Source of the DNA: a virus
Reading direction: 5' to 3' (one strand)
UHGV virus genome: UHGV-1967114
Length of the DNA stretch: 35,477 nt
The notes under the pieces were generated by a model. It made no database searches, was not told the origin of the DNA, and was given only the letters and a program-made list of their open reading frames with translations. Positions 1-35,381 of this stretch are shown here, in pieces. The position numbers and the translations under genes are program-made. Numbering within the stretch: the stretch's first letter is position 1; each line of letters opens with the position of its first letter.

Positions 1-263
1 CTGAAGCGTTGACCCAGGGCGAAACAGTTGCTGAAGCGATGGAAGCGGCAAAAGATGCTTTACTGACCGCATTTGATTTTTATTTTGAAGATAATGAGCT
101 AATCCCGTTGCCTTCGCCATTAACTAACAACGATCACTTTATTGAAGTACCTTTGAGCGTCGCCTCTAAAGTATTGCTGTTAAATGCTTTTTTACAGTCA
201 GAAATCACTCAGCAAGAGTTAGCCAGGCGAATTGGCAACCCGAATGTAGTCAACCCAAAATAA
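1..263 (+). CDS. hicB: HicB-family antitoxin, 5' portion of a gene interrupted by prophage insertion (truncated by window start); ORF now ends in 8 phage-derived codons (NPNVVNPK) then stop
   Basis: In-frame translation ...TQGETVAEAMEAAKDALLTAFDFYFEDNELIPLPSP...SEITQQELARRIG matches my recollection of E. coli HicB N-domain plus first half of an XRE-type HTH; second half of the HTH is found at 35268..35381 on the same strand. Confidence 0.75.
   Translation, partial: EALTQGETVAEAMEAAKDALLTAFDFYFEDNELIPLPSPLTNNDHFIEVPLSVASKVLLLNAFLQSEITQQELARRIGNPNVVNPK
231..246. other. attL junction: host ATTGGC - AA - phage CCCGAATG; putative 2-bp crossover AA at 237-238
   Basis: hicB reading frame diverges immediately after codon GGC-AA; compare attR at 35261..35276 where hicB frame resumes after AA. 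Confidence 0.55.
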
Positions 264-434
264 CTAAAAATTTTGCAATAAAAAGCCCCATCACAAGGAC
301 AGGGCTATAGAATCAATGAATTAGAAGAATTCTATAGCAACTGAGTCGCAATTAACACCATAAGAAATGAACTTAGGAACTAACTAGTAATATTCAGGCG
401 TTTAACTATCTCTGATTGTATTATGTCGCCTCTA

Positions 435-1229
435 TCATTTTTTCTCTACACAAGAATATTTCCATTCGATTTCCTTTCCGGTACGGTTGTCAACATAAAT
501 ATGATGATAGTCCAGTGTTCTTACATCATCAACCATCTTATCACCGGAATATGTTTTTCCGTGTTGTGCGTATAACTCTACACCAGTTTTTGTAGTTTTT
601 GACATGAATCCATCAGCGTCAATATTCATTTCCACTACAACTGGGGGGTGCATCGTTCCAGAAATTAGAAGTTTTGCCTTGTCTTTGTTTTTATCGATTA
701 CAATTTTTGTGTTTTCTTTCACTATATCACGATCTTCTACACTCAGTCCGTCAATTGTGGTTATCTTAACTACTTTCGGACAAATATATACGAAGTTGCT
801 ATTTGGGGACTTTTCCAGAACAACTTGTTTCTCTTTGGTTTTTAGAGTTTCTACTGCCTTCGGTTGTTCTTCTTCAACCTTCGCAGAAGTCTCTGAATCG
901 CTTTCTGACGCGGTTTCTTCTTTAGATAATACATCCATCAAGTTTTGGATTTGAGCGTTGTATACAGCCTCCAGTGGCTGAATCTGCCCGATATTGATCA
1001 TTGTATCACGAACAGTTTTATTCCAGTTGCGTTGCTCTTGTTTAAGCGACGGATCAATCTTAACAGCCTTAACATATACTTCATGAAGTTTAGAGTCCAG
1101 TGCGGAGATTGACTCATTAGCACAAATAAACTTCTCTGATTTGGTAGTAGCTTTAGTGCAATCGAAGGATGCAGCATTAGCACCGAATGCAGTAGCAGAA
1201 AGAACGATAGCAGCGATAATGTTTTTCAT
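435..1229 (-). CDS. Secreted protein with N-terminal LprI/DUF1311-like domain (signal peptide MKNIIAAIVLSATAFGANA) and C-terminal Cys-containing domain; probable moron
   Basis: Signal peptide; motif C-x(n)-EKFIC...LD..L...Y....QR.W...RD typical of DUF1311; RBS AGAGG upstream of ATG on minus strand. Confidence 0.6.
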   Translation of the reverse strand: MKNIIAAIVLSATAFGANAASFDCTKATTKSEKFICANESISALDSKLHEVYVKAVKIDPSLKQEQRNWNKTVRDTMINIGQIQPLEAVYNAQIQNLMDVLSKEETASESDSETSAKVEEEQPKAVETLKTKEKQVVLEKSPNSNFVYICPKVVKITTIDGLSVEDRDIVKENTKIVIDKNKDKAKLLISGTMHPPVVVEMNIDADGFMSKTTKTGVELYAQHGKTYSGDKMVDDVRTLDYHHIYVDNRTGKEIEWKYSCVEKK

Positions 1230-1587
1230 TTTATACCTCTTTTGGTATGGACTGACTTTTAGATGCTTACTTTATTGATTTTTGATATTTTTTCAATTAT
1301 TGGGATGAGATTTAGTAATTAAATTAAGAAATTAATGCTTGACAAATTAAAAAGGTACTGTTCCACGGATGAAATAAAGGGAGTTTTCGGCACCCCGGTA
1401 TTTGATGTGCGTGTGAGATTCTAAAACGTGATCACTTCACTTATGGCGCGGTCGCTACGCGACTATTAACCCACTTCCTAACCCTTACCATTACTGGATC
1501 TTTCCCTTCGTTAGAATGCGATTTAGGCGCTTAGATTGTGCGTAAAACCAATAAATAAAATTACGCAAATTTAATGGAGGATAACCA

Positions 1588-2142
1588 ATGAAAGAAGAAT
1601 TAACCCTTACAGAAATTTCCCGTTTATATGGCTATACATTGAATGGTGGCGGTAAGCGATGGTTAGAAAGGGGATTGCCATTTAACACCAATACCCGCCG
1701 CGTGCCAGCCAAAGAAGGAACAGAATGGGTCTTGAAAAATATTATCAACCCGCTTAAACAAACTTCTATCAAAGAACAAATCGACGTAGAGAAATTACGC
1801 CGTGAACGTGCTTTGGCAGATGCAGCCGAACGAGAGAACCAGGAAAAAATGAATCTCCTGATTCCTGTCGGTTATGTAGAACAGGAACTAGCGGAATACT
1901 GCGGGAAAGTGAAACAGACTATTTTGCAGATTTGTACGATCGATGCCCTAGAAATTTTAGAATCCGCCACTGATCAGAAAACATTGAAGAATAAGCTAAG
2001 GGAGATCATCGAACGTCGTTTAAATGAAGTAGGGGACTTGTTCGAAAATGCAGATTTGGGAGAAGACGAGGAAGAAGAATTAGCATTAATGGATGAACCG
2101 GAACAAGAACCAGAAGAAGACGATGAATTTGATGTGTCTTAA
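1588..2142 (+). CDS. Nu1-like DNA-packaging protein / terminase small subunit candidate (N-terminal HTH, GGGK motif, EKLRRE, acidic C-terminus)
   Basis: Pattern resembles lambda Nu1 N-terminus (HTH...GGGK...EKLRRE); strong RBS GGAGG 9 nt upstream; note it is not adjacent to the large subunit. Confidence 0.5.
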   Translation: MKEELTLTEISRLYGYTLNGGGKRWLERGLPFNTNTRRVPAKEGTEWVLKNIINPLKQTSIKEQIDVEKLRRERALADAAERENQEKMNLLIPVGYVEQELAEYCGKVKQTILQICTIDALEILESATDQKTLKNKLREIIERRLNEVGDLFENADLGEDEEEELALMDEPEQEPEEDDEFDVS

Positions 2143-2242
2143 AAATTAGATACTAAATATATACGTGAAGGATGTTGAGCTGGTCAACGTCTACGGGGGA
2201 GAACATCCCCCGCTAACCTTTTTCTTATTTGAGGATTTACCT

Positions 2243-2344
2243 ATGGTTGAATTTTTGATTTATCTGGCTGTAGGATTAACTATCGTATATTCACTTGCTC
2301 ACATTGGCATTTCTACTGTGTGTAACGCTTTCAAGTATCATTAA
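2243..2344 (+). CDS. Small hydrophobic membrane peptide (33 aa)
   Basis: ATG preceded by GAGGA RBS; single predicted TM helix; below ORF-track size cutoff. Confidence 0.3.
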   Translation: MVEFLIYLAVGLTIVYSLAHIGISTVCNAFKYH

Positions 2345-2397
2345 TTAAATCGATGAATTGAACTATAGATGATGGTCGTTTTCAAAGAGGATTATCT

Positions 2398-2571
2398 ATG
2401 GATCTTTTTGTCTACTTTGCTACTCTGCTGTTTTTGACTATCGTCGCTGGCATTAAATTGATTTTTATATCGCTGGTGGTGTTTTTCAAATTTCTAATCG
2501 GTACGCCTTACGGCTGGGTATGCTTAATCCAGTTTATTCTTTTTAGTTGCTGTAAAAAGGATACTAAATAA
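2398..2571 (+). CDS. Small membrane protein (57 aa, two hydrophobic segments)
   Basis: ATG preceded by AGAGGA RBS; hydrophobic composition. Confidence 0.35.
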   Translation: MDLFVYFATLLFLTIVAGIKLIFISLVVFFKFLIGTPYGWVCLIQFILFSCCKKDTK

Positions 2572-2728
2572 TAGTGTAATCTGCCTTTTCTCCTTATGGT
2601 TATTAACAGGGGATCTTCTTTGAGGATTCCCGATTAAAAGCCATAAAACACACTCCAGTACAGTGTTTTCATAGTCAGTGATCTATACAACACAAAAACA
2701 TAACAAGTATAGATTGAGTATTAATCCT

Positions 2729-2757
2729 CCCGCCCTTCGGGGCGGTTATTTTTCTGG
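2729..2757 (+). terminator. Intrinsic terminator (CCCGCCC-TTCG-GGGCGG + T-run)
   Basis: GC stem with UUCG tetraloop followed by TTATTTTTCT. Confidence 0.6.
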
Positions 2758-2830
2758 CTTTAAAGAATAATGTAGCATTATGTTCATTATAACCTCATCT
2801 TTGTTGTGCAAACCTAACCTAAACTTACTA

Positions 2831-2857
2831 GGGACTCTTCGGAGTCCCTTTTTTATT
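2831..2857 (+). terminator. Intrinsic terminator (GGGACTC-TTCG-GAGTCCC + T6)
   Basis: Perfect 7-bp stem, UUCG loop, TTTTTTATT; overlaps 3' end of minus-strand gene 2853..3794. Confidence 0.6.
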
Positions 2858-3794
2858 GGCAGTAAGAAAAGTTAGTACCGTACATTTCATCATGAAGCAT
2901 TGCAGCATTGCGTTTCTGTTCTTCTTCCTCGTCTACCGCATCACTAGAAAAATGAGATTTGCCCTTAAAAGAACGAAGCAATTGCAGTGCAGCCATCGGA
3001 TCACGCATCACATCGATTTTCACTTCTACTTCATCATTTGCGGCCTCATCAGCCGCATTTTCAACTACTGCCACCGGAGCAACTTCTTTAGCTTTCAGTT
3101 CTTCAATTTCAGCTTTCTGGGCTTCGATAATCTGGTCTTTTTCTTCCAGTGCAGCTTTCAGTTCTGCGATCTGTGCTTCCAGTGCAGCAAAGCGATCTTC
3201 TACAACAGGAGAAACAGCATTAACCTGTGCTTCCAGTTCCAGAAATGCTTCGCAAGATTCAATACGTTCTTTCTCTTCACCTTCATAAGCAACCAGTTCT
3301 ACAACTTCTTTTTCGGTAGCGTGGCTGTTAAAGAATACAGCAAAGTAAGGATTGCCGGATTTAGTGAAGTTCAGTTTAGCTTTTCCGGTAACTTCTTTAC
3401 GACGACCGAAGGTGATCTGGCAATCAGCGGTATCCTGAAAATCCATGTTAGGAGCGGAAACGATAGCAGTATCACCAGCAATAACCAGGTGGAACAGTTC
3501 AGAAGAGTTCTTAACGGTAAAGGTAACGATGTGGTCTACTGCAACGTCTTTAGCTGGTTTAACGCGGTCGATTGCTTTACGAATGCCGTTAGGCAGTTTA
3601 CCGTCAACACCAAAGCCAGCCGCGATCAGTGCTTCACGATGTGCTTTAAAGCCAGCGAAAGCGGATTTCTGCTGCGCAAAGGAAACATGAGCAACAACTT
3701 TCGGCTGAATCTTCTTGTTTGCTTCGGTGCCAAATTTGATAACTGCTTTAGCGTTGGTTACTTCGTTAGTGAAAAAGTTAGCGGAAAATAACAT
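2853..3794 (-). CDS. Hypothetical early protein with central coiled coil (AALEAQIAELKAALEEKDQIIEAQKAEIEELKAKE) and acidic region; function unknown
   Basis: 313-aa ORF with normal amino-acid composition; overlapping plus-strand ORFs are low-complexity and rejected. Confidence 0.6.
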   Translation of the reverse strand: MLFSANFFTNEVTNAKAVIKFGTEANKKIQPKVVAHVSFAQQKSAFAGFKAHREALIAAGFGVDGKLPNGIRKAIDRVKPAKDVAVDHIVTFTVKNSSELFHLVIAGDTAIVSAPNMDFQDTADCQITFGRRKEVTGKAKLNFTKSGNPYFAVFFNSHATEKEVVELVAYEGEEKERIESCEAFLELEAQVNAVSPVVEDRFAALEAQIAELKAALEEKDQIIEAQKAEIEELKAKEVAPVAVVENAADEAANDEVEVKIDVMRDPMAALQLLRSFKGKSHFSSDAVDEEEEQKRNAAMLHDEMYGTNFSYCQ

Positions 3795-3840
3795 TATAAA
3801 TACTCCTGTGGAAAGTTAGTTTTAATTGTTCATCGCAAAA

Positions 3841-3875
3841 GCCTCCTTGTTGCCGCAAGGGGGCTTTTTTATTTT
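3841..3875. terminator. Intrinsic terminator, possibly bidirectional (GCCTCCTTG...CAAGGGGGC + T6, A4 on other side)
   Basis: 9-bp stem with one wobble, 6-nt loop, T-run on plus side and short A-run upstream. Confidence 0.55.
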
Positions 3876-3906
3876 TAAAGCCATCATATAATTCTCAGTC
3901 AAAGTA

Positions 3907-4089
3907 TCAGTAAACCTCTGCGGTTATCTTTACTTTAATGTCATACTTCTTTAAGAGTTTGTGGAAGGTTGATTGATCAATACCTTCACCTTTAAACCAT
4001 TCACCAATCACTACATCAGGCGTCAGTTCAAAATAACGCTTTGCCATTTCTAAAACGATTTCACGAGTGAACTTAACAGGTCGTGCCAT
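3907..4089 (-). CDS. Small putative DNA-binding protein (60 aa), member of a 3-gene paralog family sharing motif F.RE...[FY]..LKKY.IKV
   Basis: Strong RBS AGGAGG 8 nt upstream; shared motif with 7207..7467 and both halves of 7470..8045. Confidence 0.55.
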   Translation of the reverse strand: MARPVKFTREIVLEMAKRYFELTPDVVIGEWFKGEGIDQSTFHKLLKKYDIKVKITAEVY

Positions 4090-4124
4090 CTTGAATCCTC
4101 CTAAATCTGGATTAATTATTTCTT

Positions 4125-4147
4125 AAAAAAAAGAGCGTTAACCGCTC
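4125..4147 (-). terminator. Possible leader terminator/attenuator upstream of 3907..4089 (minus strand GAGCG-GTTAA-CGCTC + T8)
   Basis: Short 5-bp stem but followed by 8 consecutive T on minus strand, located between candidate promoter and the gene RBS. Confidence 0.3.
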
Positions 4148-4606
4148 ATTGTTATTTATACGGGGATTGTTTTTTAATTTTTCAACCCCTCACATTTATC
4201 TCTTATATATGTATTTATAACAGAGATATGTTAAAATGTTATTCAGATGTTATCAGGCGTGTTAAATGTGTTAAACCACAGCACGAATTGCTAAAGCGAA
4301 GAACGCGATTTAACCAAATTGATGTATATTTAATCAATTTAGAAAAATGCATAGCACTTTTTGCTAAAGCGGTGAGTATTAATTGAGCTATGAATTGTAA
4401 AGATTTGTTACAGGATTTTCTCTCAGATCCAAACCTTAACAGACATATAACAATTTAACAGGATAATAACAATAGGAAGGAAAATCGGTAAATTTTTACT
4501 TTCAATACAAATATTATAACATATTTATCTCGAATTGTCAATTATACCACTGTTCCTACACAGTGTCAACAAAGGACTTTCAAACCTACACTAGCCCTAC
4601 ACTATG

Positions 4607-4785
4607 AAAATTGCCCCTGAACCAAAATCCCCTAGATTTCACATCCCATTTTTGCCCCTGAAACCCACTATTTTTGCCCCTGAAATTCTGGGAAACAGTG
4701 ATTTTGCCCCTCATTTTTGCCCCTGAAATGCCAATAATTGCCCCTGAAAATCTAATTTTTGCCCCTGAAATTTGCCCCCGAAAAG
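4607..4785 (+). repeat. Array of 8 direct repeats, consensus TTTTTGCCCCTGAAA, spacing 13-41 bp, in a 1.37-kb non-coding region; candidate iterons / protein-binding array
   Basis: Copies at about 4611, 4652, 4674, 4704(variant CTCA), 4717, 4738, 4759, 4772(variant CCCCCGA), all same orientation. Confidence 0.8.
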
Positions 4786-5458
4786 GATTGGTAAGAAAAA
4801 CTCTTTATAAAACATTAAGTTAGTGAGGGCAAAAACGGGGAATTGGGCGTGCATAGATATTATATAACACATTCGCTACGCTCATGTGTAAAACCAAAAA
4901 CAACAAATAACCAAAAAGATATTAGGAGGGCGTAGCCCGACTGCGCGAAGCGCTAACCAATTACTTCTAGTAACACTAATTTAAACTAGATGATACTAGA
5001 TGGTCTTAGAAGGAATTAACTAGTTTGCTCGCTCGCTTCGCTCACTCTCAAACGTCTGCGACGCCACTGCGTGGCATCGAGAATCACTTCTGAAAGGATT
5101 TTCTTGAAAGGGATTTTAAACTAGTTACTAACTGATTCTAGTAAACGAACGAAGTGAGTAACAATCACTTTCTAGAAAGGTATTGGTATCCCTTCGGGAT
5201 TGCAACCTTCGGTTGCTAAATTTCTTCCTGATTATTATTTCTTCAAAAGAAAGATTCTTATATTCTAAAGATACTTCTTCGTTTTGGTGATGATTTAATC
5301 AAAATCTATGAAGGAGGGCTTTAGCCCGACTGAATCCAATCACCTTTCAAGTACAGACCAGTTTTGGACTCTACCAGATCACTCTTTTCATAATAACAAG
5401 AATTTTCTCTTTATAAATAATATTAGATTGATTCACTTTCTTTTAGAGGATTTCCACT

Positions 5459-5926
5459 ATGAACCATAAAATGACTACCACTACTCCTTTTATCCTTCTG
5501 GGTCTGGATTCTGATAGCTTCCACAATGACAAGTTAATGAAGATGTTCCGTGAACGTGGTTATAACATCCTTTTCAACTCTGATGAATCCCATTTCTCTA
5601 GTGCATGGTATGCGTTTTGCCGTAATAAGAAGCCGACCATTGTTGTTAACGTCTTCACCGATGAAGAACGCTTAAAGTACCAGAATCTACCAGCAATTAT
5701 TGTTCGTGATGATCTGCCGTTTCAAGTCCGTTCCGGTGACATTGATCTGGGTAGCTTCGTTACTGTCTATGAACTGGATGAAGCAATGTTTAACTACGGT
5801 AAAGAAACCGCTCAGGAAGCCCCAGAAGAAGATGAACAAGACGAAGATGACGACGACTACGCACCAATCTGTTTTTCTTCTCAGAATGGCTTCTACGGTT
5901 ACGACGAAGGCTTAGATATGCTGTAA
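5459..5926 (+). CDS. Hypothetical early protein with highly acidic C-terminus (EEDEQDEDDDDY)
   Basis: 155-aa ORF, RBS AGAGGA; acidic tail. Confidence 0.6.
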   Translation: MNHKMTTTTPFILLGLDSDSFHNDKLMKMFRERGYNILFNSDESHFSSAWYAFCRNKKPTIVVNVFTDEERLKYQNLPAIIVRDDLPFQVRSGDIDLGSFVTVYELDEAMFNYGKETAQEAPEEDEQDEDDDDYAPICFSSQNGFYGYDEGLDML

Positions 5927-5948
5927 GTTAGGTCAACCCTTTGGTGTC

Positions 5949-5990
5949 TTGTCAAGGGGTATTGACAAAAATTTCTAACTTTTTTATGAT
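5949..5990 (+). promoter_or_regulatory. Sigma70-like promoter (TTGACA 5962-5967, 17-bp spacer, TATGAT 5985-5990) overlapped by inverted repeat TTGTCAA-N6-TTGACAA (5949-5968); candidate operator
   Basis: Near-consensus -35/-10 with optimal spacing; palindromic half-sites; third TTGACAA copy at 5999-6005. Confidence 0.5.
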
Positions 5991-6048
5991 TATCGCACTT
6001 GACAACTATGAATCTATTTGACCTAGATTTGTAAATGGAATGTTAATT

Positions 6049-6195
6049 ATGAACGCTACTAAGAAAATTGATGGACGCAAAAACCCGAACCGCAAACCGT
6101 GGACCCCAAACCTGAATTTCTCAATGGTTGACTTCCATGAACGCCAGCGTCGCATTCAAGAAGAAATTGATCGCGCGATTGCTGAATCTAAATGA
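6049..6195 (+). CDS. Small basic protein (48 aa)
   Basis: ATG downstream of promoter at 5962-5990; basic composition; below ORF-track cutoff. Confidence 0.3.
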   Translation: MNATKKIDGRKNPNRKPWTPNLNFSMVDFHERQRRIQEEIDRAIAESK

Positions 6196-6284
6196 GATAA
6201 AAATTTCTTTATAAATAAAATTGTTCCGGTAGTGATGCCGGAACTAGGAGGATCATCACTAAACCGTTTAAGGGGGATTTTACT

Positions 6285-7127
6285 ATGAATACTGTTACTA
6301 CTATGAATACTGCTATTAAACCTGCTTCCGTGTCTCTGGTTGTTGATAACACCAAACCGCTGACCATGTCTACTTTGCAGATCGCGGAATTAACCGGAAA
6401 GAATCATAAAGATGTTATGCGTGATTTTCGTAATATGGTTGATTCACTTGAAAAGGGTAGCAAACTGGTCGGAGGAGATGAGCGCAATTTTGCGCCCATC
6501 GGTTTTTATAAAGAAACGACTTATAAAGATTCTCTGAATCGTAATAAACCGATGTATGAACTGGATGAAGATCTCTGTAATACTCTGGTTATGGGATACG
6601 ATGCACCGCTTCGCTTCAAAATTGCTAAAGAATGGCGTTTGATGAAAGAAGGTAAAGCTAATGTTCCGGTTAATCCATATGAACACTTTGAAGAAACCGA
6701 TTGGATCGAACTGGCATTAGAGAAAACCCGCGAAAACAAACGTCTGGTTGAATTGCATGTTCGTAAAGCTATCGACACACACAGTCTTAGCCGCTTATTA
6801 GGCGAAAAACGAGGCTCTACGAAGGTACAAATGATTCTGAAAGGTTTATGTGCTGCTGGTGTTCTTGAGCGTCGTCTGGATGATTCTGGTAAGCCTAAAG
6901 GCTATGATCTGCTTCCTCCTGGCTATATGTTCGCTCGTATGTCGGCACACGGTCAGATCGAGTTCACTGCTGATGCTATCCCGCATCTCGTAAAACTCGG
7001 ATTGCTTGAAGAAGAAAAGGCCGCAACTTTGAAATTGCCACAGCCGAATAACTCACGAGCAATCGTCAATAATACTGCTTTGCTGATTCGTCAGAATGCT
7101 GGATCACTGGAACACTTCGGACTGTAA
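6285..7127 (+). CDS. Rha-family phage regulatory protein / antirepressor-like (N-terminal Rha domain, C-terminal Ant-like domain)
   Basis: N-terminal motif LQIAELTGKNHKDVMRDFRNMVDSLE...LVMGYD typical of Phage_pRha domain (recollection). Confidence 0.65.
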   Translation: MNTVTTMNTAIKPASVSLVVDNTKPLTMSTLQIAELTGKNHKDVMRDFRNMVDSLEKGSKLVGGDERNFAPIGFYKETTYKDSLNRNKPMYELDEDLCNTLVMGYDAPLRFKIAKEWRLMKEGKANVPVNPYEHFEETDWIELALEKTRENKRLVELHVRKAIDTHSLSRLLGEKRGSTKVQMILKGLCAAGVLERRLDDSGKPKGYDLLPPGYMFARMSAHGQIEFTADAIPHLVKLGLLEEEKAATLKLPQPNNSRAIVNNTALLIRQNAGSLEHFGL

Positions 7128-7135
7128 TAATTTTT

Positions 7136-7164
7136 GCCCCTGAATTTCAGGGGCTTTTTGTTTT
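7136..7164 (+). terminator. Intrinsic terminator built from one copy of the TTTTTGCCCCTGAA motif paired with its inverted partner (GCCCCTG-AATTT-CAGGGGC + T-run)
   Basis: 7-bp GC stem, 5-nt loop, TTTTTGTTTT immediately downstream of stop at 7127. Confidence 0.65.
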
Positions 7165-7172
7165 CTATAGGT

Positions 7173-7198
7173 ATAAAAAAGCCACTCCGAAGAGTGGC
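7173..7198 (-). terminator. Intrinsic terminator for the minus-strand operon (GCCACTC-CGAA-GAGTGGC, A-run on plus = T-run on minus)
   Basis: Perfect 7-bp stem and tetraloop 9 nt downstream of stop of 7207..7467. Confidence 0.6.
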
Positions 7199-7206
7199 AA
7201 TGAGAA

Positions 7207-7467
7207 TCAAACTCCGTTGATTGGTACAACCTCTCCACCGTCTACACGTATAAAGAACTCGACATTAAGTTTCTTCATACTTTTATAAAACTGGGCGGTG
7301 GAGATGCCCAGATCGTTTAATACTTTCTCTCTGCTTTCTTTACCCTTGCCAGCTTTGTAAAACTCGTAGCAAATGTATGCCAGTTGTTCACGATTAAAAC
7401 GGGCAGGACGACCGCGAGTAGCTTTAGTAGTCATAGTCATTTTCTCCAAATTAAAGTGAATGTTCAC
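7207..7467 (-). CDS. Small putative DNA-binding protein (86 aa), paralog of 3907..4089
   Basis: Shared motif ...FYKSMKKLNVEFFIRVDGGE.. with the C-terminal half of 7470..8045. Confidence 0.55.
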   Translation of the reverse strand: MNIHFNLEKMTMTTKATRGRPARFNREQLAYICYEFYKAGKGKESREKVLNDLGISTAQFYKSMKKLNVEFFIRVDGGEVVPINGV

Positions 7468-7469
7468 CT

Positions 7470-8045
7470 TTATTTAGAGGACTTAGATTTTATAGGAAAA
7501 AGTTCTCCATCGTCAACTGACATAAAGAACTCAACCTTAATCCCGTACTTCTTCAACCGTGAATAATATGTACCCCGACTTATATCAACCTTGCGAAGCA
7601 CTTCAAAGAAGGACTTAGGATCGTTGTAATAGTGGCTGTACTTCACGTTAGCGAGTTCAACGAATAGTTCTCTTGTATCACCATAGTCTTTCTTAAAAGC
7701 CACGTTACGATAGCGTGTAATGGCATGATTCAATCTCTTCTGTTTAAGCACTTCCCTGATCGGTGTCCACTGCAACCGATAGATAGGACCGTCATCTACT
7801 CGATAGAATCGCTTAATGTCAAAATCAAACCACTCACGGACTCGCTGAAACTCTGTCTGTGATGTGCGATGCTTCTTAAAGAAGTTATGAATATCGGTAT
7901 ACCCATTATCACGATACAACTCGATTAAAATCTGTTTAGCTTCCTCACGACTAAAGCCAGATGTTGTGTAGTCGGTCTTTAAGTGCTTATGTTTTACTGG
8001 CAAACGATATTCATGATCGGTACAAGACAAGACAAGACAAGACAA
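7470..8045 (-). CDS. Protein with tandem duplication of the same HTH-like module (191 aa); start codon uncertain (only TTG candidates, inside the pentanucleotide repeat)
   Basis: Two internal copies of the family motif ending VDDG; no in-frame ATG near 5' end. Confidence 0.45.
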   Translation of the reverse strand: MSCLVLSCTDHEYRLPVKHKHLKTDYTTSGFSREEAKQILIELYRDNGYTDIHNFFKKHRTSQTEFQRVREWFDFDIKRFYRVDDGPIYRLQWTPIREVLKQKRLNHAITRYRNVAFKKDYGDTRELFVELANVKYSHYYNDPKSFFEVLRKVDISRGTYYSRLKKYGIKVEFFMSVDDGELFPIKSKSSK

Positions 8046-8056
8046 GACAAGACAAG
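8022..8056. repeat. Pentanucleotide microsatellite (ACAAG)x7 (CTTGT on minus strand)
   Basis: Seven perfect tandem units read directly from the sequence. Confidence 0.9.
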
Positions 8057-8185
8057 GCTAATTCTAATTCATCTCTTTCTTGCTGATTAATTAGCATACA
8101 CCCCCCCTTAAATCTTAATACCCGTATTTATCAAAATATCAACAATTTAATAAATACCTTCATATTTCGTAATGAGGGTAATTAC

Positions 8186-10099
8186 ATGAAACTGATTTCT
8201 AATAAGGCCAAATTAAAAAAGATTCTCAGAAATGCAGCCAAATATATTACGCCACCGCCTAAACTCCTTCCTTCTGAATGGTGCGAAGCGAATCTAACGC
8301 TAGTCGATGGTCCTCGTGCTGGGGATAAAGTTAAATTACTGTCATTTCAGAAAGGCATGATTGATGCTCCTTTCCTTGAGAAGAAAAAGAAGTACGTTTT
8401 TTGTACGAGTGCGCAGATCGGAAAGACGACCATCATGTCAGGGATCATGTTTAACCAGATGGCAAACGATCCGTGCAATATCATTATCGGGCAAAGTACC
8501 GCTAAAGAAGTGGCTATGTACTTGAATACTAAGATCCGTCCTTCTATTGAAGCATGTCCGGCATTACAGGAAGTGGTAACAGATAAGAATGATCGTAATG
8601 CGGTAAACAACAATAACCAGATTCAGCTAAAAACAAACCATTTCCTTTACATGGTTTCTTTGACCAGTCCTTCAAGTTTGCGTGGGCGTACTGCCAAGTT
8701 AGGGATTGTAGACGAATGCGACGCAGCAACAATCACCGAAGAAGGTTGTCCGGTGGCACTAACTGCAAACCGTTTAACTACCTTTGGTGATGAAGCTCGA
8801 TTGATTGTTTCTAGTACCCCAACCAATAAGCTGGGAATCATTAACCAGCAATGGTTATCAAGTGATATGCGTATGTTTTTTGTTCCGTGTCCTCATTGCG
8901 GGGAACACCAGGTGATCGAGTGGGAAAACGTTCAATTTGAATGGCGTAACATCGATGGTAAGAACTTACCCGATCCTGATACCGCTCGTTATATTTGCCC
9001 CCACTGTAAGCAATCATGGACAGAAGGGGAACGAATCAGGGCAGTAGCGCAAGGCGAGTGGAGAGCAACCCGTGAAAGTGAAGTAGCAGGATTCTGGATC
9101 AGCCGTCTGTATTCACCTTTCAGTAGTATCCGCGCTTGTGTGGTTGATTTTAGTCATGCGTGGCAATCCTTTGATTTACAATCATTTTATAACACAGTGT
9201 TAGGTAAGGTATACGACGATCAGGACACGGCAGTAGAAGCAAATGAACTGGAACAACTCAAAACAGATGTTTCTATCGAGAATATCCCTGATGACGTGAT
9301 TTTCTTGTGTGCGGGTACTGACCAGCAATTAGATCGCGCAGAAACTACGATCATGGGCGTGGCAAAGGATAAGATTTATATTCTGGATCATCGCAGCTTT
9401 TACGACCATAACTGTGAACGATATGAATCTCCTGTATGGGACAGATTAATCAACTTCCATAAAACCAAATTTACTACTGTATCGGGTGATCGTGTTCCTA
9501 TGCTCGCCAGCTTCCTTGATACATCGAACGGTCGATTCACTCAAGCCGGATACCGTATTTGCGGTGGTAAGTGGAAGAACTTACACGCAATCAAAGGTAG
9601 TTCATCTGGTACTGCTCCAATCATTCCGGTGAAACCAACTACCACGGGTGGTCATGAATTGCTTATGTTGGGCGTTAACGTGGGTAAAACGGCTATTCGT
9701 GAGCTATTAACACGCAACTTGAAAGAAAACCCTCATATTGGTTTAGAGATATCAGAAACCGTTCCTGATGATTATCTCGATCAGCTTTTGAGTGAATCCA
9801 TCAAGCGTACTGTTACTGGAACACGTTGGGTAAAAAATCCAGGTGCGACACGAAACGAGGCGCTCGACTGTCTGGTTTATAGCTATGCGGCTTCTCGCTA
9901 TGTTCTTTCAAAAATGTCATGGGATAAGCTCATTGCAATGAAAGAAAAGCTGAATCGTGAACCAGAAGCAACCGTAGAAGCTCCTAAATCACATTCTAAC
10001 GAGCAAATCGAAGAAACTAAGCCAATCACTCATCACAAACCTAATCGTCGTCCTATGGCGCGTCCTGTGCGTCGTGGTGGGTGGGTAAATAACTTTTAA
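8186..10099 (+). CDS. Terminase large subunit (lambda gpA-like ATPase/nuclease)
   Basis: 637 aa; Walker A-like SAQIGKTT and Walker B LGIVDECD; CPHCGEH...CPHCKQ motif; position upstream of portal. Confidence 0.85.
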
Positions 10100-31513: not shown

Positions 31514-31518
31514 AATTA

Positions 31519-31545
31519 AAGCGCCTCTAGTGGGCGCTTTTTTGT
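31519..31545 (+). terminator. Intrinsic terminator ending the late operon (AAGCGCC-TCTAGTG-GGCGCTT + T6)
   Basis: GC stem and TTTTTTG immediately after stop of 31160..31513. Confidence 0.7.
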
Positions 31546-31710
31546 TAGAATATGCTGGCGACGTTAGCTATATTTCTGACCATTTTTTCATTATAGACAA
31601 ATATACCGCAGACGATAAAGTCGTTTTTGACGAAGCCGTCTCTGGTTGAAGTAATGAAAGAACCGGAAGACCTAGAGCTTGATTTAAGCCCATTAGAGAC
31701 TCTCTAACGC

Positions 31711-31741
31711 AATTAAATTAAAAAGGGGTACGAATTACCCC
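31711..31741 (-). terminator. Intrinsic terminator for minus-strand recombinase-side operon (GGGGTA-CGAAT-TACCCC with T-run on minus strand)
   Basis: Hairpin preceded on plus strand by AATTAAATTAAAAA; located downstream of minus-strand stop at 31780. Confidence 0.5.
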
Positions 31742-31779
31742 TTAAAGCGTTTGGTTCGTTATACGGCGATTTAGGCCGC

Positions 31780-32052
31780 CTATGATTTATTTTCTTGTTC
31801 TATGAAAATCTTTCTCACCTCATCAGAATAAATGTCTAGTGATTCCTCATAACATTTTCTGTATTCACCGTAATTACTGGTGGTCTTTTGACATAGCAAT
31901 TTCAATGTTTTATGTGCTCCATCAATGAAAGCATCTTCTCTATAGGTTAGCGGTCTACGCATTTCTTGGTCTACGGTTGCCAATGCCAGGCAAGAATTCA
32001 TAGATAAAATCAAACCTAAAATCTTAATCATCTTCATTAGCTTAAATTCCAA
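31780..32052 (-). CDS. Small secreted protein (signal peptide MKMIKILGLILSMNSCLALA), Cys-containing
   Basis: Hydrophobic N-terminus with ALA cleavage-like site; overlaps 3' end of recombinase gene. Confidence 0.5.
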   Translation of the reverse strand: MEFKLMKMIKILGLILSMNSCLALATVDQEMRRPLTYREDAFIDGAHKTLKLLCQKTTSNYGEYRKCYEESLDIYSDEVRKIFIEQENKS

Positions 32053-33721
32053 ATTCCTGTAATGGACCTGGTATTTCTTCTTCTGGTTTCCAGTTCTTAT
32101 CTGTCAGCATGTCTAAACATGGATGCAGAACAAGCCCGTTACTCTCCAGAATCTGCCTATCATTGATAGTCTTCAAATCAATGAAGATCCGGCCTTTCCT
32201 CGGTCCTCTTGAATTTTCTATTACAACTCTCTGGGTCTTGCCATCGATGTATTCCAATACAAACAAGTTTTTGTACTTGTCAATCCTGCTACACCCGATC
32301 CGTTTTAGAGCTTGCTTAATCTTAAACCGGACCTTAATGCGATCCTCGTTGTAAACATCTTCTAAATCAAATTCTGCGAGCTTCTCCCAGCCTTGAGAGT
32401 CAACAGAATACATTTCCTCTTCTGCCATCTTAATTTGATTGTAGAGTGTTTCACGCTCGCTATTGAGGGTAGTAATCTGATCGGCTAGCTCCTTCGTTGC
32501 TCCTGTCATAGCAGAAAGGGTAATCAGGTTATCAATCTTGCGTGATATTTCATCAATCTGTACTTTCAAAGCCGGAACCGGATTAGCCTTATCTTCAGCA
32601 ATCCAGATTTTATCAGCCAGCAATTGCAATACAGCTTTCTCTAATTGGTCGCCGCGAAAACTCCAGTTTGTATGCACACATTCAATACGACTAGAGCGCA
32701 TTGCATCGCATGAATAACGATATTGGTTAGGCCGTCTGTTTGTTCCTTTCACCTTAACCATAGCGGAACCGCAATGTTCACATTTCAATAGACCAACACC
32801 ACTAAGCAAGGGAATAGGTTTAACTTCTTCTTTGTCTCCAAAGTTACATGCTCTAACACCAATGCTTTTCTTAAGGTGATAAAACTCAGCGTCATCTAGC
32901 ACACGAGGATAATAATCCTTTAACTCATACTTAACGCCATCTACAGAGATTTCCTTGATACCAATCAAAGCGCGGGTATGGAACAACCTTTCAATCATTG
33001 CCCGTGACCAGTTTGAATGCCTCTTGTGACTTGCGGCTGGTGGTGGTGTGTATGTCGCGTTAAGGTGATCCAGTATCTCGGCGGTTGACCGTCCATTCCT
33101 GCGTAATTCCACAACTTCCTGAACAATAGGGAAGAAGACCGGATGAGGAAGCACATAACCAGATGTGGTATCAGTCCACCACATATTCTTTCCAATTTCC
33201 TCGATTGCAACAGCCGGATTTTGTGGATTTTCTTGATGAGCTTTAATCTTAATCAGTGCGCTTGAGTTAGTACGATTGCGCTTAGTCTGGCTTTCCTCAT
33301 TACCACGGATGAATAAAAGGATGGAGAACATCAGGTCCATCGGGTTAGCGGTAACAGTATCCAGCGAGTAGATCTTGTTATCCATGCCAGTAACAATGGT
33401 TATCCCCCTACGGATGATTGAAAGGAATAACTCCTGCGCACTGACAATATCGGCACGGGATAAACGGTCCAAGTTTTCGATGAATAGCCAGCTACCAACA
33501 GGAACGGATCTACCTATTGCATCAAGGAAACGAGATAGCGCCCCTGTTTTGGAGTTAGCACCCTTAAACGCAGATACACCCAGATCCTGATAATCATTTA
33601 CCAGTTCAAGGTCATACTTTACCGCAATCTCTCTAGCCATCCTGATTTGTCGTTCATAACTCGAACCATCATTCTGACGCATAGACGAGAAGCGAATATA
33701 CGAATACAGTTTAGTTTTCAT
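32042..33721 (-). CDS. Large serine recombinase (probable prophage integrase); start taken at ATG 33721
   Basis: N-terminal resolvase-type motif YIRFSSMRQ (catalytic Ser), central recombinase region, zinc-ribbon CEHCGSAMVKV...YRYSCD...IECVH; 559 aa. Confidence 0.85.
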   Translation of the reverse strand: MKTKLYSYIRFSSMRQNDGSSYERQIRMAREIAVKYDLELVNDYQDLGVSAFKGANSKTGALSRFLDAIGRSVPVGSWLFIENLDRLSRADIVSAQELFLSIIRRGITIVTGMDNKIYSLDTVTANPMDLMFSILLFIRGNEESQTKRNRTNSSALIKIKAHQENPQNPAVAIEEIGKNMWWTDTTSGYVLPHPVFFPIVQEVVELRRNGRSTAEILDHLNATYTPPPAASHKRHSNWSRAMIERLFHTRALIGIKEISVDGVKYELKDYYPRVLDDAEFYHLKKSIGVRACNFGDKEEVKPIPLLSGVGLLKCEHCGSAMVKVKGTNRRPNQYRYSCDAMRSSRIECVHTNWSFRGDQLEKAVLQLLADKIWIAEDKANPVPALKVQIDEISRKIDNLITLSAMTGATKELADQITTLNSERETLYNQIKMAEEEMYSVDSQGWEKLAEFDLEDVYNEDRIKVRFKIKQALKRIGCSRIDKYKNLFVLEYIDGKTQRVVIENSRGPRKGRIFIDLKTINDRQILESNGLVLHPCLDMLTDKNWKPEEEIPGPLQEFGI

Positions 33722-33730
33722 ACCATTTCC

Positions 33731-33770
33731 AAACAAAAACGCCCCTACCGCGTATTATAACGATAGGGGC
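33731..33770 (-). terminator. Terminator-like hairpin between secreted-protein gene and recombinase gene (minus strand)
   Basis: GCCCCTA...TAGGGGC stem with 16-nt loop, followed on minus strand by GTTTTTGTTT. Confidence 0.45.
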
Positions 33771-33784
33771 TAGGTGATTAAAGA

Positions 33785-34204
33785 TTAAAGAATTTCACGG
33801 CAGCTAATCAGGGTATAAGATGTATCACCTTTTTTAACATCAAATATAGGAGCGCCATCTACAGAATGCAGATATTTGATGTAAGACTTACCATCTTCGG
33901 AACCATAATATTCTTCTTTCTCGTTCTTATCTTCTTTCAGTTTCGGGCTTTTGATTGTTTTATCAAATACCGGATCGTTGAAAGCAAATTGACTATTATC
34001 ATCATTCACTCGAACCTTTACACCGATAAAACCACGGTATTTGCCAGACGGCGCATGATAATAACGGTCGCCATCACTCAGGTAGCGTGTATCATCTCCT
34101 TTATATTCGAAGTAGGAATTGCACACATAATAGGTATAGGTATTAGCATTTGCAGCACCAACCAAACCCAGAGCAAGAACGATACCAGCGATAATCTTTT
34201 TCAT
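33785..34204 (-). CDS. Secreted protein (signal peptide ...LVGAANA), two Cys; possibly related to C-terminal domain of 435..1229
   Basis: Signal peptide; Y-V-C near N-terminus and I-S-C near C-terminus as in the 264-aa protein (FVYIC...KYSC). Confidence 0.6.
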   Translation of the reverse strand: MKKIIAGIVLALGLVGAANANTYTYYVCNSYFEYKGDDTRYLSDGDRYYHAPSGKYRGFIGVKVRVNDDNSQFAFNDPVFDKTIKSPKLKEDKNEKEEYYGSEDGKSYIKYLHSVDGAPIFDVKKGDTSYTLISCREIL

Positions 34205-34515
34205 AGTAGAATTTCCTCTTGTTGTTTGAATTACGATATATTTATATCGTTAAAAATTGATGCTAATTACCAGACCAAACACAACCGCACCAATCAAATC
34301 AATCCAGTTAATACACAATCCGCTATATTCTTTCTTGAATGTCTTAGATGAAATGCCATCATGAAATTGTTTCATTGCTCACCCCATACTAACGACAAGA
34401 TAAGAAAGACTAATAATAGTTGTGAGACTACCTCCCACGAATGAGATAAAAGCTAACATGTTTGATTCTCCATTTAAAAAGCGGTGGGAATTACACCCAC
34501 CAAATTAGAAATTAA

Positions 34516-34953
34516 TTAAGCGCGAACGATGGTCAGAGTATCCAGCAAACCTTTTTCGTATAATTCAAAACACGTTTTATATTGCTCAATCTGGAAACCA
34601 TAGCGGGTGATCTTATTCAGTAGAACAATCACGGTATTCTCATCTAGGTATTGTCCTTGCTTACCAATTACATATGACTCGCGGGATAGTCTCAGCTTAC
34701 GGAAACCTTTAACACCTAATTCCTTAGCCACCGCTTTAATCTCGTTAATCTCACCTTCTGCGGCTACATATTCAGCGTCGATAATATCAGTTGATGATCT
34801 CAGTGCTACCAGAACTAAAGCCATTGCTTCTTCTTCGGTACGAGCAACACCAGCTTTCTCGAAAGTCATCTCACCAAATTTACGAATCATGATATTGAAC
34901 ATTGTCTGTATTCCGTTTAAATCGGCGGGAATAGTACCCGCCAAATTAGACAT
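34516..34953 (-). CDS. Hypothetical protein (145 aa), second gene of attR-proximal two-gene operon
   Basis: Start overlaps upstream stop (TAATG); no recognizable motif. Confidence 0.55.
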   Translation of the reverse strand: MSNLAGTIPADLNGIQTMFNIMIRKFGEMTFEKAGVARTEEEAMALVLVALRSSTDIIDAEYVAAEGEINEIKAVAKELGVKGFRKLRLSRESYVIGKQGQYLDENTVIVLLNKITRYGFQIEQYKTCFELYEKGLLDTLTIVRA

Positions 34954-35249
34954 TACTTCTTGCTGATAAACTCTTTAGCGATAAAGTTGATTACTTCTTT
35001 CAGCTTCTTGTCTGTATCGATGCACGCTGGTAATTCTTCTTTAATATCCTGCGGCAGATACACATTCCCTTTAAAGTGGAGGAAACCATCATTACCAATC
35101 ATGTAGGAGAACATCCATTCACAATCGTTATCCGCTTCCCAGAACGCCACGGTCTCATCGTCAATCAAGGTAATGTCCATGTTGCGACGTGCTGCGTAGT
35201 TGATGATTGCTTTACCGATGTTCATTGTTGTACCCCCTCGTGTTATCAT
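34953..35249 (-). CDS. Hypothetical protein (98 aa), first gene of attR-proximal two-gene operon
   Basis: ORF begins 18 nt inside attR; RBS GGGGGT; no recognizable motif. Confidence 0.55.
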   Translation of the reverse strand: MITRGGTTMNIGKAIINYAARRNMDITLIDDETVAFWEADNDCEWMFSYMIGNDGFLHFKGNVYLPQDIKEELPACIDTDKKLKEVINFIAKEFISKK

Positions 35250-35267
35250 GGGTACATGATATTAGGG

Positions 35268-35381
<114 letters not shown>

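What the first reader, a model, noticed from the sequence alone, without database searches (positions are those of the whole stretch)
2853..8045. No recognizable repressor or replication genes; early region holds a paralog family of small HTH-like proteins
I could not recognise a CI/Cro-type repressor, a replication initiator, a helicase/primase or recombination genes. Instead three minus-strand genes (3907..4089, 7207..7467, 7470..8045) encode related small proteins with a shared motif (F.RE...[FY]..LKKY.IKV...VDDGE), the last a tandem duplication, alongside a 313-aa coiled-coil/acidic protein and a Rha-like antirepressor. These may form an uncharacterised immunity or replication-control system, or the element may depend on host or helper functions.
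Basis: inference. Interest (0 to 1): 0.5.

Follow-up and report, generated by a model that had tools for sequence, protein, structure and literature searches.

The report
Prophage early region with orphan iteron-binding module

Summary
The three minus-strand genes (60, 86/75 and 191/200 aa) are real paralogs. The last is an internal duplication predicted as two three-helix-plus-hairpin domains. Pfam, PHROGs, NCBIfam, PADLOC and PDB searches give no repressor, initiator, helicase, primase or recombinase hit. The window is a whole prophage (about 238-35267) inserted into hicB by a large serine recombinase, so nothing is hidden outside it. The family is syntenic and mosaic in E. coli, Salmonella and Proteus, so it is not a remnant.

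It holds eight TTGCCCCTGAA repeats (4611-4782) next to two perfect-consensus leftward promoters that read into the 60-aa and 313-aa genes. Across 24 related loci the N-terminal domain of the 313-aa-position protein has four types. Each type goes with its own repeat, 24/24, although the DNA between gene and repeats is shuffled.

Best reading: the 313-aa protein binds the repeats and is an orphan initiator at an iteron origin, working like lambda O or plasmid Rep (inferred, about 0.45). The HTH paralogs do not track the repeats and are probably transcription regulators. An immunity or packaging role for the 313-aa protein is not excluded.

The parts
238..240 (.). attL junction inside hicB (CGAATTGGCAA|CCCGAATG); left end of the prophage
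   Evidence: The hicB reading frame breaks here; comparison with the right junction indicates a crossover at an AA dinucleotide.
1588..2142 (+). 184-aa terminase small-subunit-like protein, 6 kb from the large subunit gene
   Evidence: phrog_57 (terminase small subunit) E=6e-11; no Pfam hit.
2853..3794 (-). 313-aa protein: beta-rich N-domain (about 1-160), coiled coil (161-236), acidic disordered tail, conserved C-terminal peptide. Candidate repeat-binding initiator.
   Evidence: AF2 model. The N-domain type co-varies 24/24 with the repeat type. The family is tiny: 12 representatives among 1.8e9 proteins.
3837..3868 (.). GC-rich hairpin between the 60-aa and 313-aa genes (terminator-like)
3907..4089 (-). 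60-aa HTH paralog, first gene of the leftward operon
   Evidence: At least three alleles, which assort independently of repeat type.
4133..4147 (-). Terminator hairpin plus T-run immediately upstream of the 60-aa gene's ribosome-binding site
   Evidence: Present in all 19 loci examined, with two different stem sequences.
4513..4569 (-). Two overlapping perfect sigma-70 consensus promoters (TTGACA-17-TGnTATAAT, 12/12 each) reading leftward
4611..4782 (+). Array of 8 direct repeats with core TTGCCCCTGAA (6 exact, 2 variant); start-to-start spacings 41, 22, 30, 13, 21, 21, 13 bp
   Evidence: (8 matches in the window vs 0.53 expected; 0 of 100 shuffles reach 8).
4585..4604 (+). Two copies of CCTACACTA, the repeat used as the main array in type-B relatives
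4860..5235 (+). Conserved, hairpin-rich non-coding block (UUCG and GNRA-like loops; tandem GAAAGGATTT / GAAAGGGATTT motif), partly type-specific
   Evidence: Alignment. RNA fold z=-3.9. No Rfam family.
5459..5926 (+). 155-aa acidic protein of unknown function, C-terminal half nearly invariant
   Evidence: no family hit.
5962..5990 (+). Rightward promoter TTGACA-17-TATGAT, overlapped by the inverted repeat TTGTCAA-N6-TTGACAA
   Evidence: sequence.
6285..7127 (+). Rha-family regulator (280 aa)
   Evidence: Pfam Phage_pRha 5.7e-17; phrog_63 1.5e-17.
7136..7154 (+). Rha terminator hairpin GCCCCTGAAtttCAGGGGC. It contains the repeat core but does not co-vary with repeat type.
7207..7467 (-). 86-aa (75 aa from ATG 7434) HTH paralog
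7470..8098 (-). Tandem-HTH paralog (200 aa when intact); here its ATG at 8096 is out of frame with the body
8022..8056 (-). (CTTGT)7 pentanucleotide tract that causes the frameshift
   Evidence: 1-2 copies in 19 other loci; 9 copies, also out of frame, in L017.
8186..10099 (+). Terminase large subunit (GpA type), first gene of the structural operon, divergent from the paralog operon
   Evidence: Pfam GpA_ATPase 1.3e-55 and GpA_nuclease 3.1e-45.
32042..33736 (-). Large serine recombinase (integrase)
   Evidence: Pfam Resolvase, Recombinase and Zn_ribbon_recom; phrog_95 1.2e-58.

Best explanation
The region is the early/regulatory module of an intact, uncultivated temperate siphovirus lineage of Enterobacterales. 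Its core is a two-part specificity unit: a direct-repeat (iteron) array at 4611-4782, and the 313-aa protein encoded 0.8 kb to its left.

Proposed mechanism. The variable beta-rich N-domain of the 313-aa protein recognises the repeats, and its coiled coil multimerises it on the array. I propose that it is the phage's replication initiator. On this view the array, with the flanking AT-rich promoter region and the hairpin-rich block, is the origin. Host helicase, loader and primase would be recruited as they are by plasmid Rep proteins or lambda O.

Control of expression. Two consensus leftward promoters would express the protein. Terminator hairpins before and after the 60-aa gene would gate that expression.

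The HTH paralogs. The three small proteins (60 aa; 86 aa; 200 aa tandem) are lineage-specific tri-helical DNA-binding proteins. They most likely act as the transcription regulators of this module and of the divergent late operon, taking the roles normally filled by CI/Cro-type proteins.

Shown: paralogy, predicted HTH fold, the repeat array, the promoters and terminators, the protein-repeat co-variation, and the absence of standard genes.

Inferred: DNA binding by the 313-aa protein, origin function, and the regulatory roles of the paralogs.
For: 1. Repeat array. There are 8 copies of an 11-bp core, mostly 21-22 bp apart, against 0.53 expected by chance.

2. Co-variation in 24 loci from E. coli, Salmonella and Proteus:
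- N-domain type A goes with TTGCCCCTGAA (11 loci).
- Type B goes with CCTACAC (10 loci).
- Type C goes with TCCCCG (1 locus).
- Type D goes with ATCCCTAG (2 loci).

3. Recombination between the partners. The 60-aa gene and the leader lie between the gene and the array. Their alleles occur in all combinations with types A and B. The match is therefore kept despite recombination between the two partners.

4. Specificity maps to the N-domain. L038 keeps the type A N-domain (76% identity) and the A repeats but has a different C-terminal domain. L033 and L034 share the D N-domain (86%) and D repeats but have different C-termini. A relative, P0166, replaces the N-domain with an ORF6N DNA-binding domain (Pfam 1.2e-20) on the same coiled coil and C-terminal domain.

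5. No other replication function. No other replication-related gene is detectable in the complete prophage.

6. The lineage is active-looking. The family has conserved synteny, occurs in 63 of 5426 complete E. coli genomes, and uses at least two integration sites, hicB and ycdX.

7. Known parallel. A variable N-terminus matched to iterons with an exchangeable C-terminus is the pattern known for lambdoid O proteins (established knowledge, not tested here).
Against: - There is no sequence or structural similarity to any initiator. The N-domain model has low confidence (overall pLDDT 57) and resembles small beta barrels, not winged helices.
- No homolog was found on any PLSDB plasmid or INPHARED phage, so there is no independent replicon context.
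- Co-variation proves a specific match, not replication. A repressor-operator or terminase-pac pair would co-vary in the same way.
- Only one DnaA-box-like site (4885) is present, and it is not conserved in type B loci.
- The type D arrays are 11-bp tandem units, a spacing also typical of ParR-type centromeres.
- The co-variation rests on four types, so the number of independent events is small.
Confidence: 0.45

Rival explanations
1. The 313-aa protein and its repeat array form the immunity module. The protein is the lysogeny repressor, or a stoperator-type silencer, bound to multiple asymmetric sites next to the early promoters. The four types are heteroimmune groups. Replication would then depend entirely on host functions or on another unrecognised gene.
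For: Matched protein and site swaps are the classic signature of heteroimmunity. The array abuts the strongest promoters of the region. No other repressor candidate is recognisable.
Against: The sites are direct repeats clustered 40-215 bp upstream of the promoters; they are not palindromes overlapping the promoters. The gene is driven by perfect-consensus promoters behind terminators, which looks like an early lytic transcription unit and not a maintenance gene. The phage would then have no replication determinant at all.
Confidence: 0.22
2. The 313-aa protein is the DNA-recognition subunit for packaging (a functional small terminase) and the array is the pac/cosB site. Its layout of DNA-binding N-domain, coiled-coil oligomerisation region and C-terminal partner-binding tail is the canonical small-terminase layout.
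For: Domain layout from the AF2 model. The repeats are helically phased. The locus lies between the small-terminase-like and large-terminase genes.
Against: A separate protein with real homology to small terminases exists at 1588-2142 (phrog_57, 6e-11). The gene lies on the opposite strand from the late operon and under early-type promoters. Identical 313-aa proteins occur with large terminases that are only 55% identical.
Confidence: 0.1
3. Immunity is RNA- or termination-based, as in satellite phage P4 and phage N15. On this view, the strong constitutive leftward promoters produce a leader RNA of about 400 nt. That RNA terminates before the 60-aa and 313-aa genes. This would explain why no protein repressor is found.
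For: Twin 12/12 promoters. A terminator hairpin before the 60-aa gene is conserved in 19 of 19 loci, with two different stems, and a second hairpin lies before the 313-aa gene. The leader folds better than shuffled sequences (z=-3.3).
Against: No Rfam match. No complementary target-site pairs were seen in the repeat search. The two leader types share little sequence. This reading is compatible with the best explanation and does not replace it.
Confidence: 0.13
4. The HTH paralogs are not regulators. They are accessory DNA-binding factors such as a recombination directionality factor for the serine integrase, or packaging helpers next to the large terminase gene.
Against: There are three separate copies in two operons, both next to promoters. 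No known directionality factor or terminase family matched.
Confidence: 0.1

Closest known systems
Lambda O protein with ori-lambda iterons (lambdoid O/ori specificity types)
   Same: An adjacent gene plus repeat array. The N-terminal part is type-specific and matched to the repeats, while the C-terminal part is exchangeable between types. No helicase or primase of its own is required beyond host proteins.
   Different: No homology to Phage_rep_O or any winged-helix fold. The repeats lie outside the gene and are direct, not inverted. No lambda-P-like loader gene was recognised. A long coiled coil is present.
Iteron plasmid initiators (RepA/RepE/pi, Pfam Rep_3) and their origins
   Same: Six to twenty direct repeats at about 11 or 22-bp phasing beside an AT-rich stretch. 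The initiator gene lies in cis, preceded by a small DNA-binding protein gene that could autoregulate it.
   Different: No Rep_3 or tandem winged-helix signature in the 313-aa protein. No homolog on 72,556 plasmids. No conserved DnaA boxes.
Hin/Tc3/Myb-type tri-helical HTH domains (homeodomain-like)
   Same: The paralogs are predicted as three-helix bundles preceded by a basic GRP arm. The 200-aa protein has two such domains in tandem, as in Myb R2R3 or the Tc3 bipartite domain.
P4 / N15 RNA-mediated immunity (premature termination of an early operon)
   Same: A strong promoter, a long untranslated leader and terminators ahead of the putative replication gene; no protein repressor recognisable.
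   Different: No sequence or Rfam similarity, and no demonstrated antisense pairing. Wholly untested here.
Rha-family phage regulators
   Same: The 280-aa protein carries a bona fide Phage_pRha domain (5.7e-17).
   Different: 'Antirepressor' is an annotation label only. Its alleles vary from 42 to 100% identity among relatives, independently of the other parts.

Membership tests
CI/Cro (Xre, HTH_3) phage repressors | Sequence match to HTH_3/HTH_XRE or related repressor models in any ORF of the prophage | tested here: not met
   No such hit in Pfam, PHROGs or NCBIfam for any non-structural ORF.
Iteron-type replication initiators (lambda O, Rep_3) | Homology or fold similarity to winged-helix initiators | tested here: not met
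Iteron-type replication initiators (lambda O, Rep_3) | Array of phased direct repeats next to the gene | tested here: met
   8 repeats at 4611-4782, mostly 21-22 bp apart, against 0.53 expected.
Iteron-type replication initiators (lambda O, Rep_3) | Protein specificity type matched to repeat sequence across relatives | tested here: met
   24/24 loci, four types; the match maps to the N-domain.
Iteron-type replication initiators (lambda O, Rep_3) | AT-rich unwinding element and DnaA/IHF sites at the origin | tested here: inconclusive
   78-82% AT at 4465-4540, but that stretch is also the promoter region. There is one DnaA-box-like site at 4885, not conserved in type B. No IHF consensus match.
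Iteron-type replication initiators (lambda O, Rep_3) | Supports autonomous or induced replication | not testable with these tools
   Requires a plasmid-rescue assay or marker-frequency experiment.
Rha family regulators | Phage_pRha domain above the Pfam gathering score | tested here: met
   62.5 bits against a cut-off of 29.9. TIGR02681 scores 45.0 against a cut-off of 45.95, just below.
Tri-helical (homeodomain-like) HTH DNA-binding domains | Three-helix bundle with a recognition helix; structural match to known members | tested here: inconclusive
Terminase small subunit | Homology to small-terminase families; gene adjacent to the large subunit | tested here: not met
   For the 313-aa protein and the paralogs there is no hit. 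The separate 184-aa protein matches phrog_57 (6e-11) but lies 6 kb from the large subunit gene.
ParR/parC-type partition | Centromere repeats plus adaptor plus partner NTPase (ParM/ParA) | tested here: not met
   Repeats and a candidate binder are present, but no NTPase gene exists in the prophage. The element integrates into the chromosome.
Defective prophage remnant | Truncated or missing structural, lysis or integration modules | tested here: not met
   The terminase, portal, capsid, tail, endolysin and integrase ORFs are uninterrupted. The only lesion is the (CTTGT)7 frameshift in the 200-aa gene. Synteny is conserved in more than 24 loci.

The most novel reading that the evidence does not exclude
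This prophage lineage replicates from an iteron origin using a previously unrecognised initiator family: a beta-rich DNA-binding N-domain, a coiled coil and an exchangeable C-terminal effector. Its specificity modules are swapped among phages. Lysogeny is held by transcription termination or leader RNA together with private HTH proteins, not by a CI-type repressor. On this reading both core functions of a temperate phage are carried out by families absent from current databases.
Probability: 0.3. Interest if true: 0.7.

Novelty: new variant of a known kind. Interest (0 to 1): 0.55.

Why it matters
About 1% of complete E. coli genomes carry this prophage type (63 of 5426), as do Shigella sonnei, Salmonella and Proteus. 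Yet every gene of its control region is annotated as 'hypothetical', and no isolated phage resembles it. If the 313-aa protein is an initiator, it defines a new origin-binding fold with four natural specificity variants. That would be useful for annotating the many prophages that appear to lack replication genes, and could provide orthogonal replicon parts. The co-variation table also gives ready-made positive and negative controls for binding experiments. The paralog family adds an uncatalogued HTH variant to phage regulatory proteins.

Tried and rejected
Searches that found nothing:
- Nucleotide and protein searches of INPHARED phages with the region, the 191-aa, the 313-aa and the type D proteins gave no match.
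- A PLSDB plasmid search with type A and type D proteins gave no match.
- A scan of GTDB species-representative genomes with the 155-aa protein gave no relatives.
- Rfam over the whole window, and permissively over 4000-6300, found nothing beyond a chance snoRNA hit.
- PADLOC found no defence-system match.
- A PDB sequence search with profiles of the 200-, 313- and 155-aa families gave only coiled-coil noise.
- Foldseek of the 313-aa model against viral structures gave nothing at E <= 0.001.
- One full-text literature search (hicB + prophage + serine recombinase + Escherichia coli) found nothing on this element.

Ideas rejected:
- The window is truncated and the missing genes lie outside. Rejected: both hicB halves flank it.
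- The repeat copy at 7134 is a ninth functional iteron. Rejected: it is the Rha terminator hairpin and is present regardless of repeat type.
- The tandem-HTH 200-aa protein is the iteron binder, by analogy with two-winged-helix Rep proteins. Rejected: it is 84-94% conserved across loci whose repeats differ.
- The 52-aa and 53-aa ORFs inside the non-coding block are genes. Rejected: they are not conserved.
- A shared-9-mer search across all intergenic regions produced no convincing common operator.

Full report
**What the window is**

Positions 2800-8200 are 100% identical to the E. coli PI7 chromosome. The surrounding host genes are those of the E. coli hicAB-ydcR neighbourhood: yncJ and hicA on the left, ydcR and ydcS on the right.

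The window starts in the 5' part of hicB (9-263) and ends in its 3' part (about 35268-35381). The junctions read CGAATTGGCAA|CCCGAATG and TTAGGGAA|ACCTAAACAGG. That is a two-base AA crossover without a long direct repeat, as expected for the large serine recombinase encoded at 32042-33736.

The window therefore holds one complete prophage of about 35.0 kb and 41% G+C. Nothing relevant can be hiding outside it. The window is not PI7 itself: PI7 has an indel in the large terminase gene, whereas the window's copy is an intact 637-aa ORF.

**Gene content**

From 8186 to 31513 runs an uninterrupted plus-strand structural and lysis operon:
- GpA-type large terminase
- lambda-type portal
- a 666-aa capsid protein; its homologs in related loci carry precomputed Peptidase_S78 and Phage_capsid hits
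- tail genes
- an M15 endolysin

The rest is 238-8185 on the left and 31514-35267 on the right. The right arm holds the integrase, three secreted or membrane proteins, and two unknowns that match only PHROGs of unknown function.

**Checking the observation**

The three minus-strand genes are paralogs. BLASTP gives E=3e-8, 4e-4 and 6e-4 between them, and 0.002 between the two halves of the largest.

None of the 60-, 86-, 200-, 313- or 155-aa proteins matches Pfam, PHROGs, NCBIfam, PADLOC or any PDB sequence at a meaningful level. A profile of the HTH domain finds only 26 proteins among 5.8 billion, all unnamed proteins of E. coli, Salmonella and Edwardsiella. The Rha domain and the promoter at 5962-5990 are confirmed.

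- The 60-aa protein lacks the terminal hairpin motif.
- The 191-aa ORF is an artefact of a frameshift. The gene's real ATG is at 8096, and a (CTTGT)7 tract at 8022-8056 puts it out of frame. Intact homologs are 200 aa with one or two copies of the unit.

**Not a remnant**

The same gene order recurs in other E. coli genomes, in 17 IMG/VR proviruses, in Salmonella and in Proteus columbae. The order is: small-terminase-like gene, 300-340-aa protein, about 60-aa HTH, 1.2-1.7 kb of non-coding DNA, about 150-aa protein, small ORF, Rha, about 75-aa HTH, 200-aa HTH, large terminase.

These relatives use at least two integration sites, hicB and ycdX. Related DNA is present in 63 of 5426 complete E. 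coli genomes. No isolated phage is close. The best is the 141-kb Escherichia phage DCP80, at 43-46% identity for terminase and capsid only.

The 1369 bases between the 60-aa and 155-aa genes (4090-5458) are non-coding. They hold four elements:

- *Repeat array.* Eight direct copies of TTGCCCCTGAA lie at 4611-4782 (six exact, two variant), mostly 21-22 bp apart. The window has 8 matches against 0.53 expected by chance.
- *Twin promoters.* Immediately to the left, on the minus strand, are two overlapping promoters that each match TTGACA-17-TATAAT at 12 of 12 positions and have an extended -10 (4569-4513). They point at the 60-aa and 313-aa genes.
- *Terminators.* A terminator hairpin lies just before the 60-aa gene's ribosome-binding site (4147-4133). 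It is present in all 19 loci examined, with two different stem sequences. Another hairpin lies between the 60-aa and 313-aa genes (3837-3868).
- *Hairpin-rich block.* To the right of the array is a conserved block with many hairpins (about 4860-5235). It has no Rfam match but folds better than shuffles, z=-3.9.

**The key result: co-variation**

Across the window plus 23 related loci, the protein in the 313-aa position comes in four N-domain types. These types are barely alignable with one another. Each goes with its own repeat:

| N-domain type | Repeat core | Loci |
|---|---|---|
| A | TTGCCCCTGAA | 11 |
| B | CCTACAC(TA), 6-9 copies | 10 |
| C | TCCCCG, 13-14 copies | 1 |
| D | ATCCCTAG, 10-17 copies, many at 11-bp spacing | 2 (Proteus and Salmonella) |

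There are no exceptions.

The 60-aa gene and the leader lie physically between the protein gene and the array. Their alleles (two main classes each) occur in all combinations with types A and B. Recombination has therefore repeatedly separated the two partners, yet only matched pairs are seen.

The specificity maps to the N-domain:
- Salmonella locus L038 has a type A N-domain (76% identity) and A repeats, but a different C-terminal domain.
- The two type D loci share the N-domain (86%) and the repeats, but differ in the C-terminus.
- A relative found in the representative search, P0166, carries an ORF6N DNA-binding domain (Pfam 1.2e-20) in place of the N-domain, on the same coiled coil and C-terminal domain.

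By contrast, the alleles of the HTH paralogs, the 155-aa protein and Rha do not follow the repeat type. The extra copy of the repeat core at 7134 is only the Rha terminator hairpin. It occurs in type B loci too.

**Interpretation**

That the 313-aa protein's N-domain recognises the array is a strong inference; I put it at about 0.8. What the complex does is less certain. I favour replication initiation, for four reasons:
- The array has the form of iterons.
- The binding-protein gene lies in cis.
- The pattern of a variable N-terminus matched to repeats with an exchangeable C-terminus is the one known for lambdoid O proteins.
- The phage otherwise has no replication determinant, while a single initiator that recruits the host helicase is enough for iteron plasmids (established knowledge).

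Against this:
- The AF2 model is poor (pLDDT 57; N-domain 70-83) and resembles small beta barrels, not any initiator.
- There is no homolog on plasmids.
- Origin hallmarks such as DnaA boxes are not conserved.

An immunity role (repressor plus operators) or a packaging role (small-terminase-like layout plus a pac site) would give the same co-variation, so I list both as rivals. The strong promoters followed by conserved terminators also allow a P4/N15-like termination or RNA mechanism of immunity. That would explain the missing repressor, but it is untested.

**The paralogs**

They are best described as a private family of tri-helical DNA-binding proteins placed at the control points of the region. 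One heads the leftward operon. Two form an operon that diverges from the late operon across an 89-bp intergenic region. Regulatory roles are likely but not shown. I found no shared operator motif.

**Verdict**

The finding is real and moderately interesting. But the most informative component is the repeat array paired with the 313-aa protein, not the HTH paralogs. I rate it a new variant of a known kind, an iteron-plus-binder module built from an unrecognised protein family, pending experiments.

Noticed in passing
window 8022-8056 (minus strand): A (CTTGT)7 pentanucleotide tract sits in the first codons of the 200-aa HTH gene and puts the body out of frame with the ATG at 8096. Related loci have 1-2 copies (in frame), and L017 has 9 (also out of frame). 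The same 7-copy allele is in five other assemblies (L005-L009). This may be slipped-strand phase variation or recurrent inactivation.
   Followed up: partly
window 9-263 and about 35268-35381; L012 35677-35831: The prophage splits the hicB antitoxin gene, removing its C-terminal part. In strain PI7 the adjacent hicA toxin gene is annotated as frameshifted, while another carrier (L006) has an intact 58-aa HicA. Insertion may disturb toxin-antitoxin autoregulation.
   Followed up: no
window 1588-2142 vs 8186-10099: The only small-terminase-like gene (phrog_57, 6e-11) lies 6 kb from the large terminase gene, with the whole early/regulatory region inserted between them. This order is conserved in all relatives. 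The cos/pac site is unknown.
   Followed up: partly
window about 4150-4160 (-), 5409-5418 (+), 6206-6215 (+): A TATAAATA-containing motif (CTTTATAAATAA) recurs roughly 45-70 nt upstream of the 60-aa, 155-aa and Rha genes. The copies upstream of the 60-aa and 155-aa genes are conserved in the related loci aligned. It may be a promoter -10 element or a regulator site.
   Followed up: no
window 4585-4604: Two copies of the type B repeat CCTACACTA sit directly beside the type A array in this window and in some other type A loci. This could be a trace of module exchange or a secondary site.
   Followed up: partly
window 7136-7154: The Rha terminator hairpin GCCCCTGAAtttCAGGGGC is made of the type A repeat core and its inverted copy, preceded by the same TTTTT. 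It is present in loci of other repeat types too, so the resemblance is unexplained.
   Followed up: yes
window 5092-5120 and related loci: The tandem motif GAAAGGATTTT-N4-GAAAGGGATTT is conserved in nearly all repeat types. AAAGGGATT occurs 3-4 times in type B loci. It may be a binding site for one of the conserved proteins, or for terminase.
   Followed up: no
window 435-1229(-), 31780-32052(-), 33785-34204(-): Three genes with signal-peptide-like N-termini sit at the prophage ends: an LprI-like 264 aa protein, and proteins of 90 aa and 139 aa. They look like lysogenic-conversion cargo. Relatives carry other cargo at the same spot, for example a GIY-YIG nuclease in L015.
   Followed up: no
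window 8186-8233 vs L013/L025: Large terminases of two classes that are only about 55% identical overall share an identical first 16 residues ([16 protein letters not shown]). This is either a recombination boundary or a conserved partner-binding peptide.
   Followed up: partly
window 5950-6030 and L014/L016 leader region: TTGACA/TGTCAA-type inverted repeats (TTGTCAA-N6-TTGACAA; CTTGACC) overlap the 5962 promoter. Similar elements occur at the leftward promoter of the second leader type. They are possible operators for a shared regulator.
   Followed up: no
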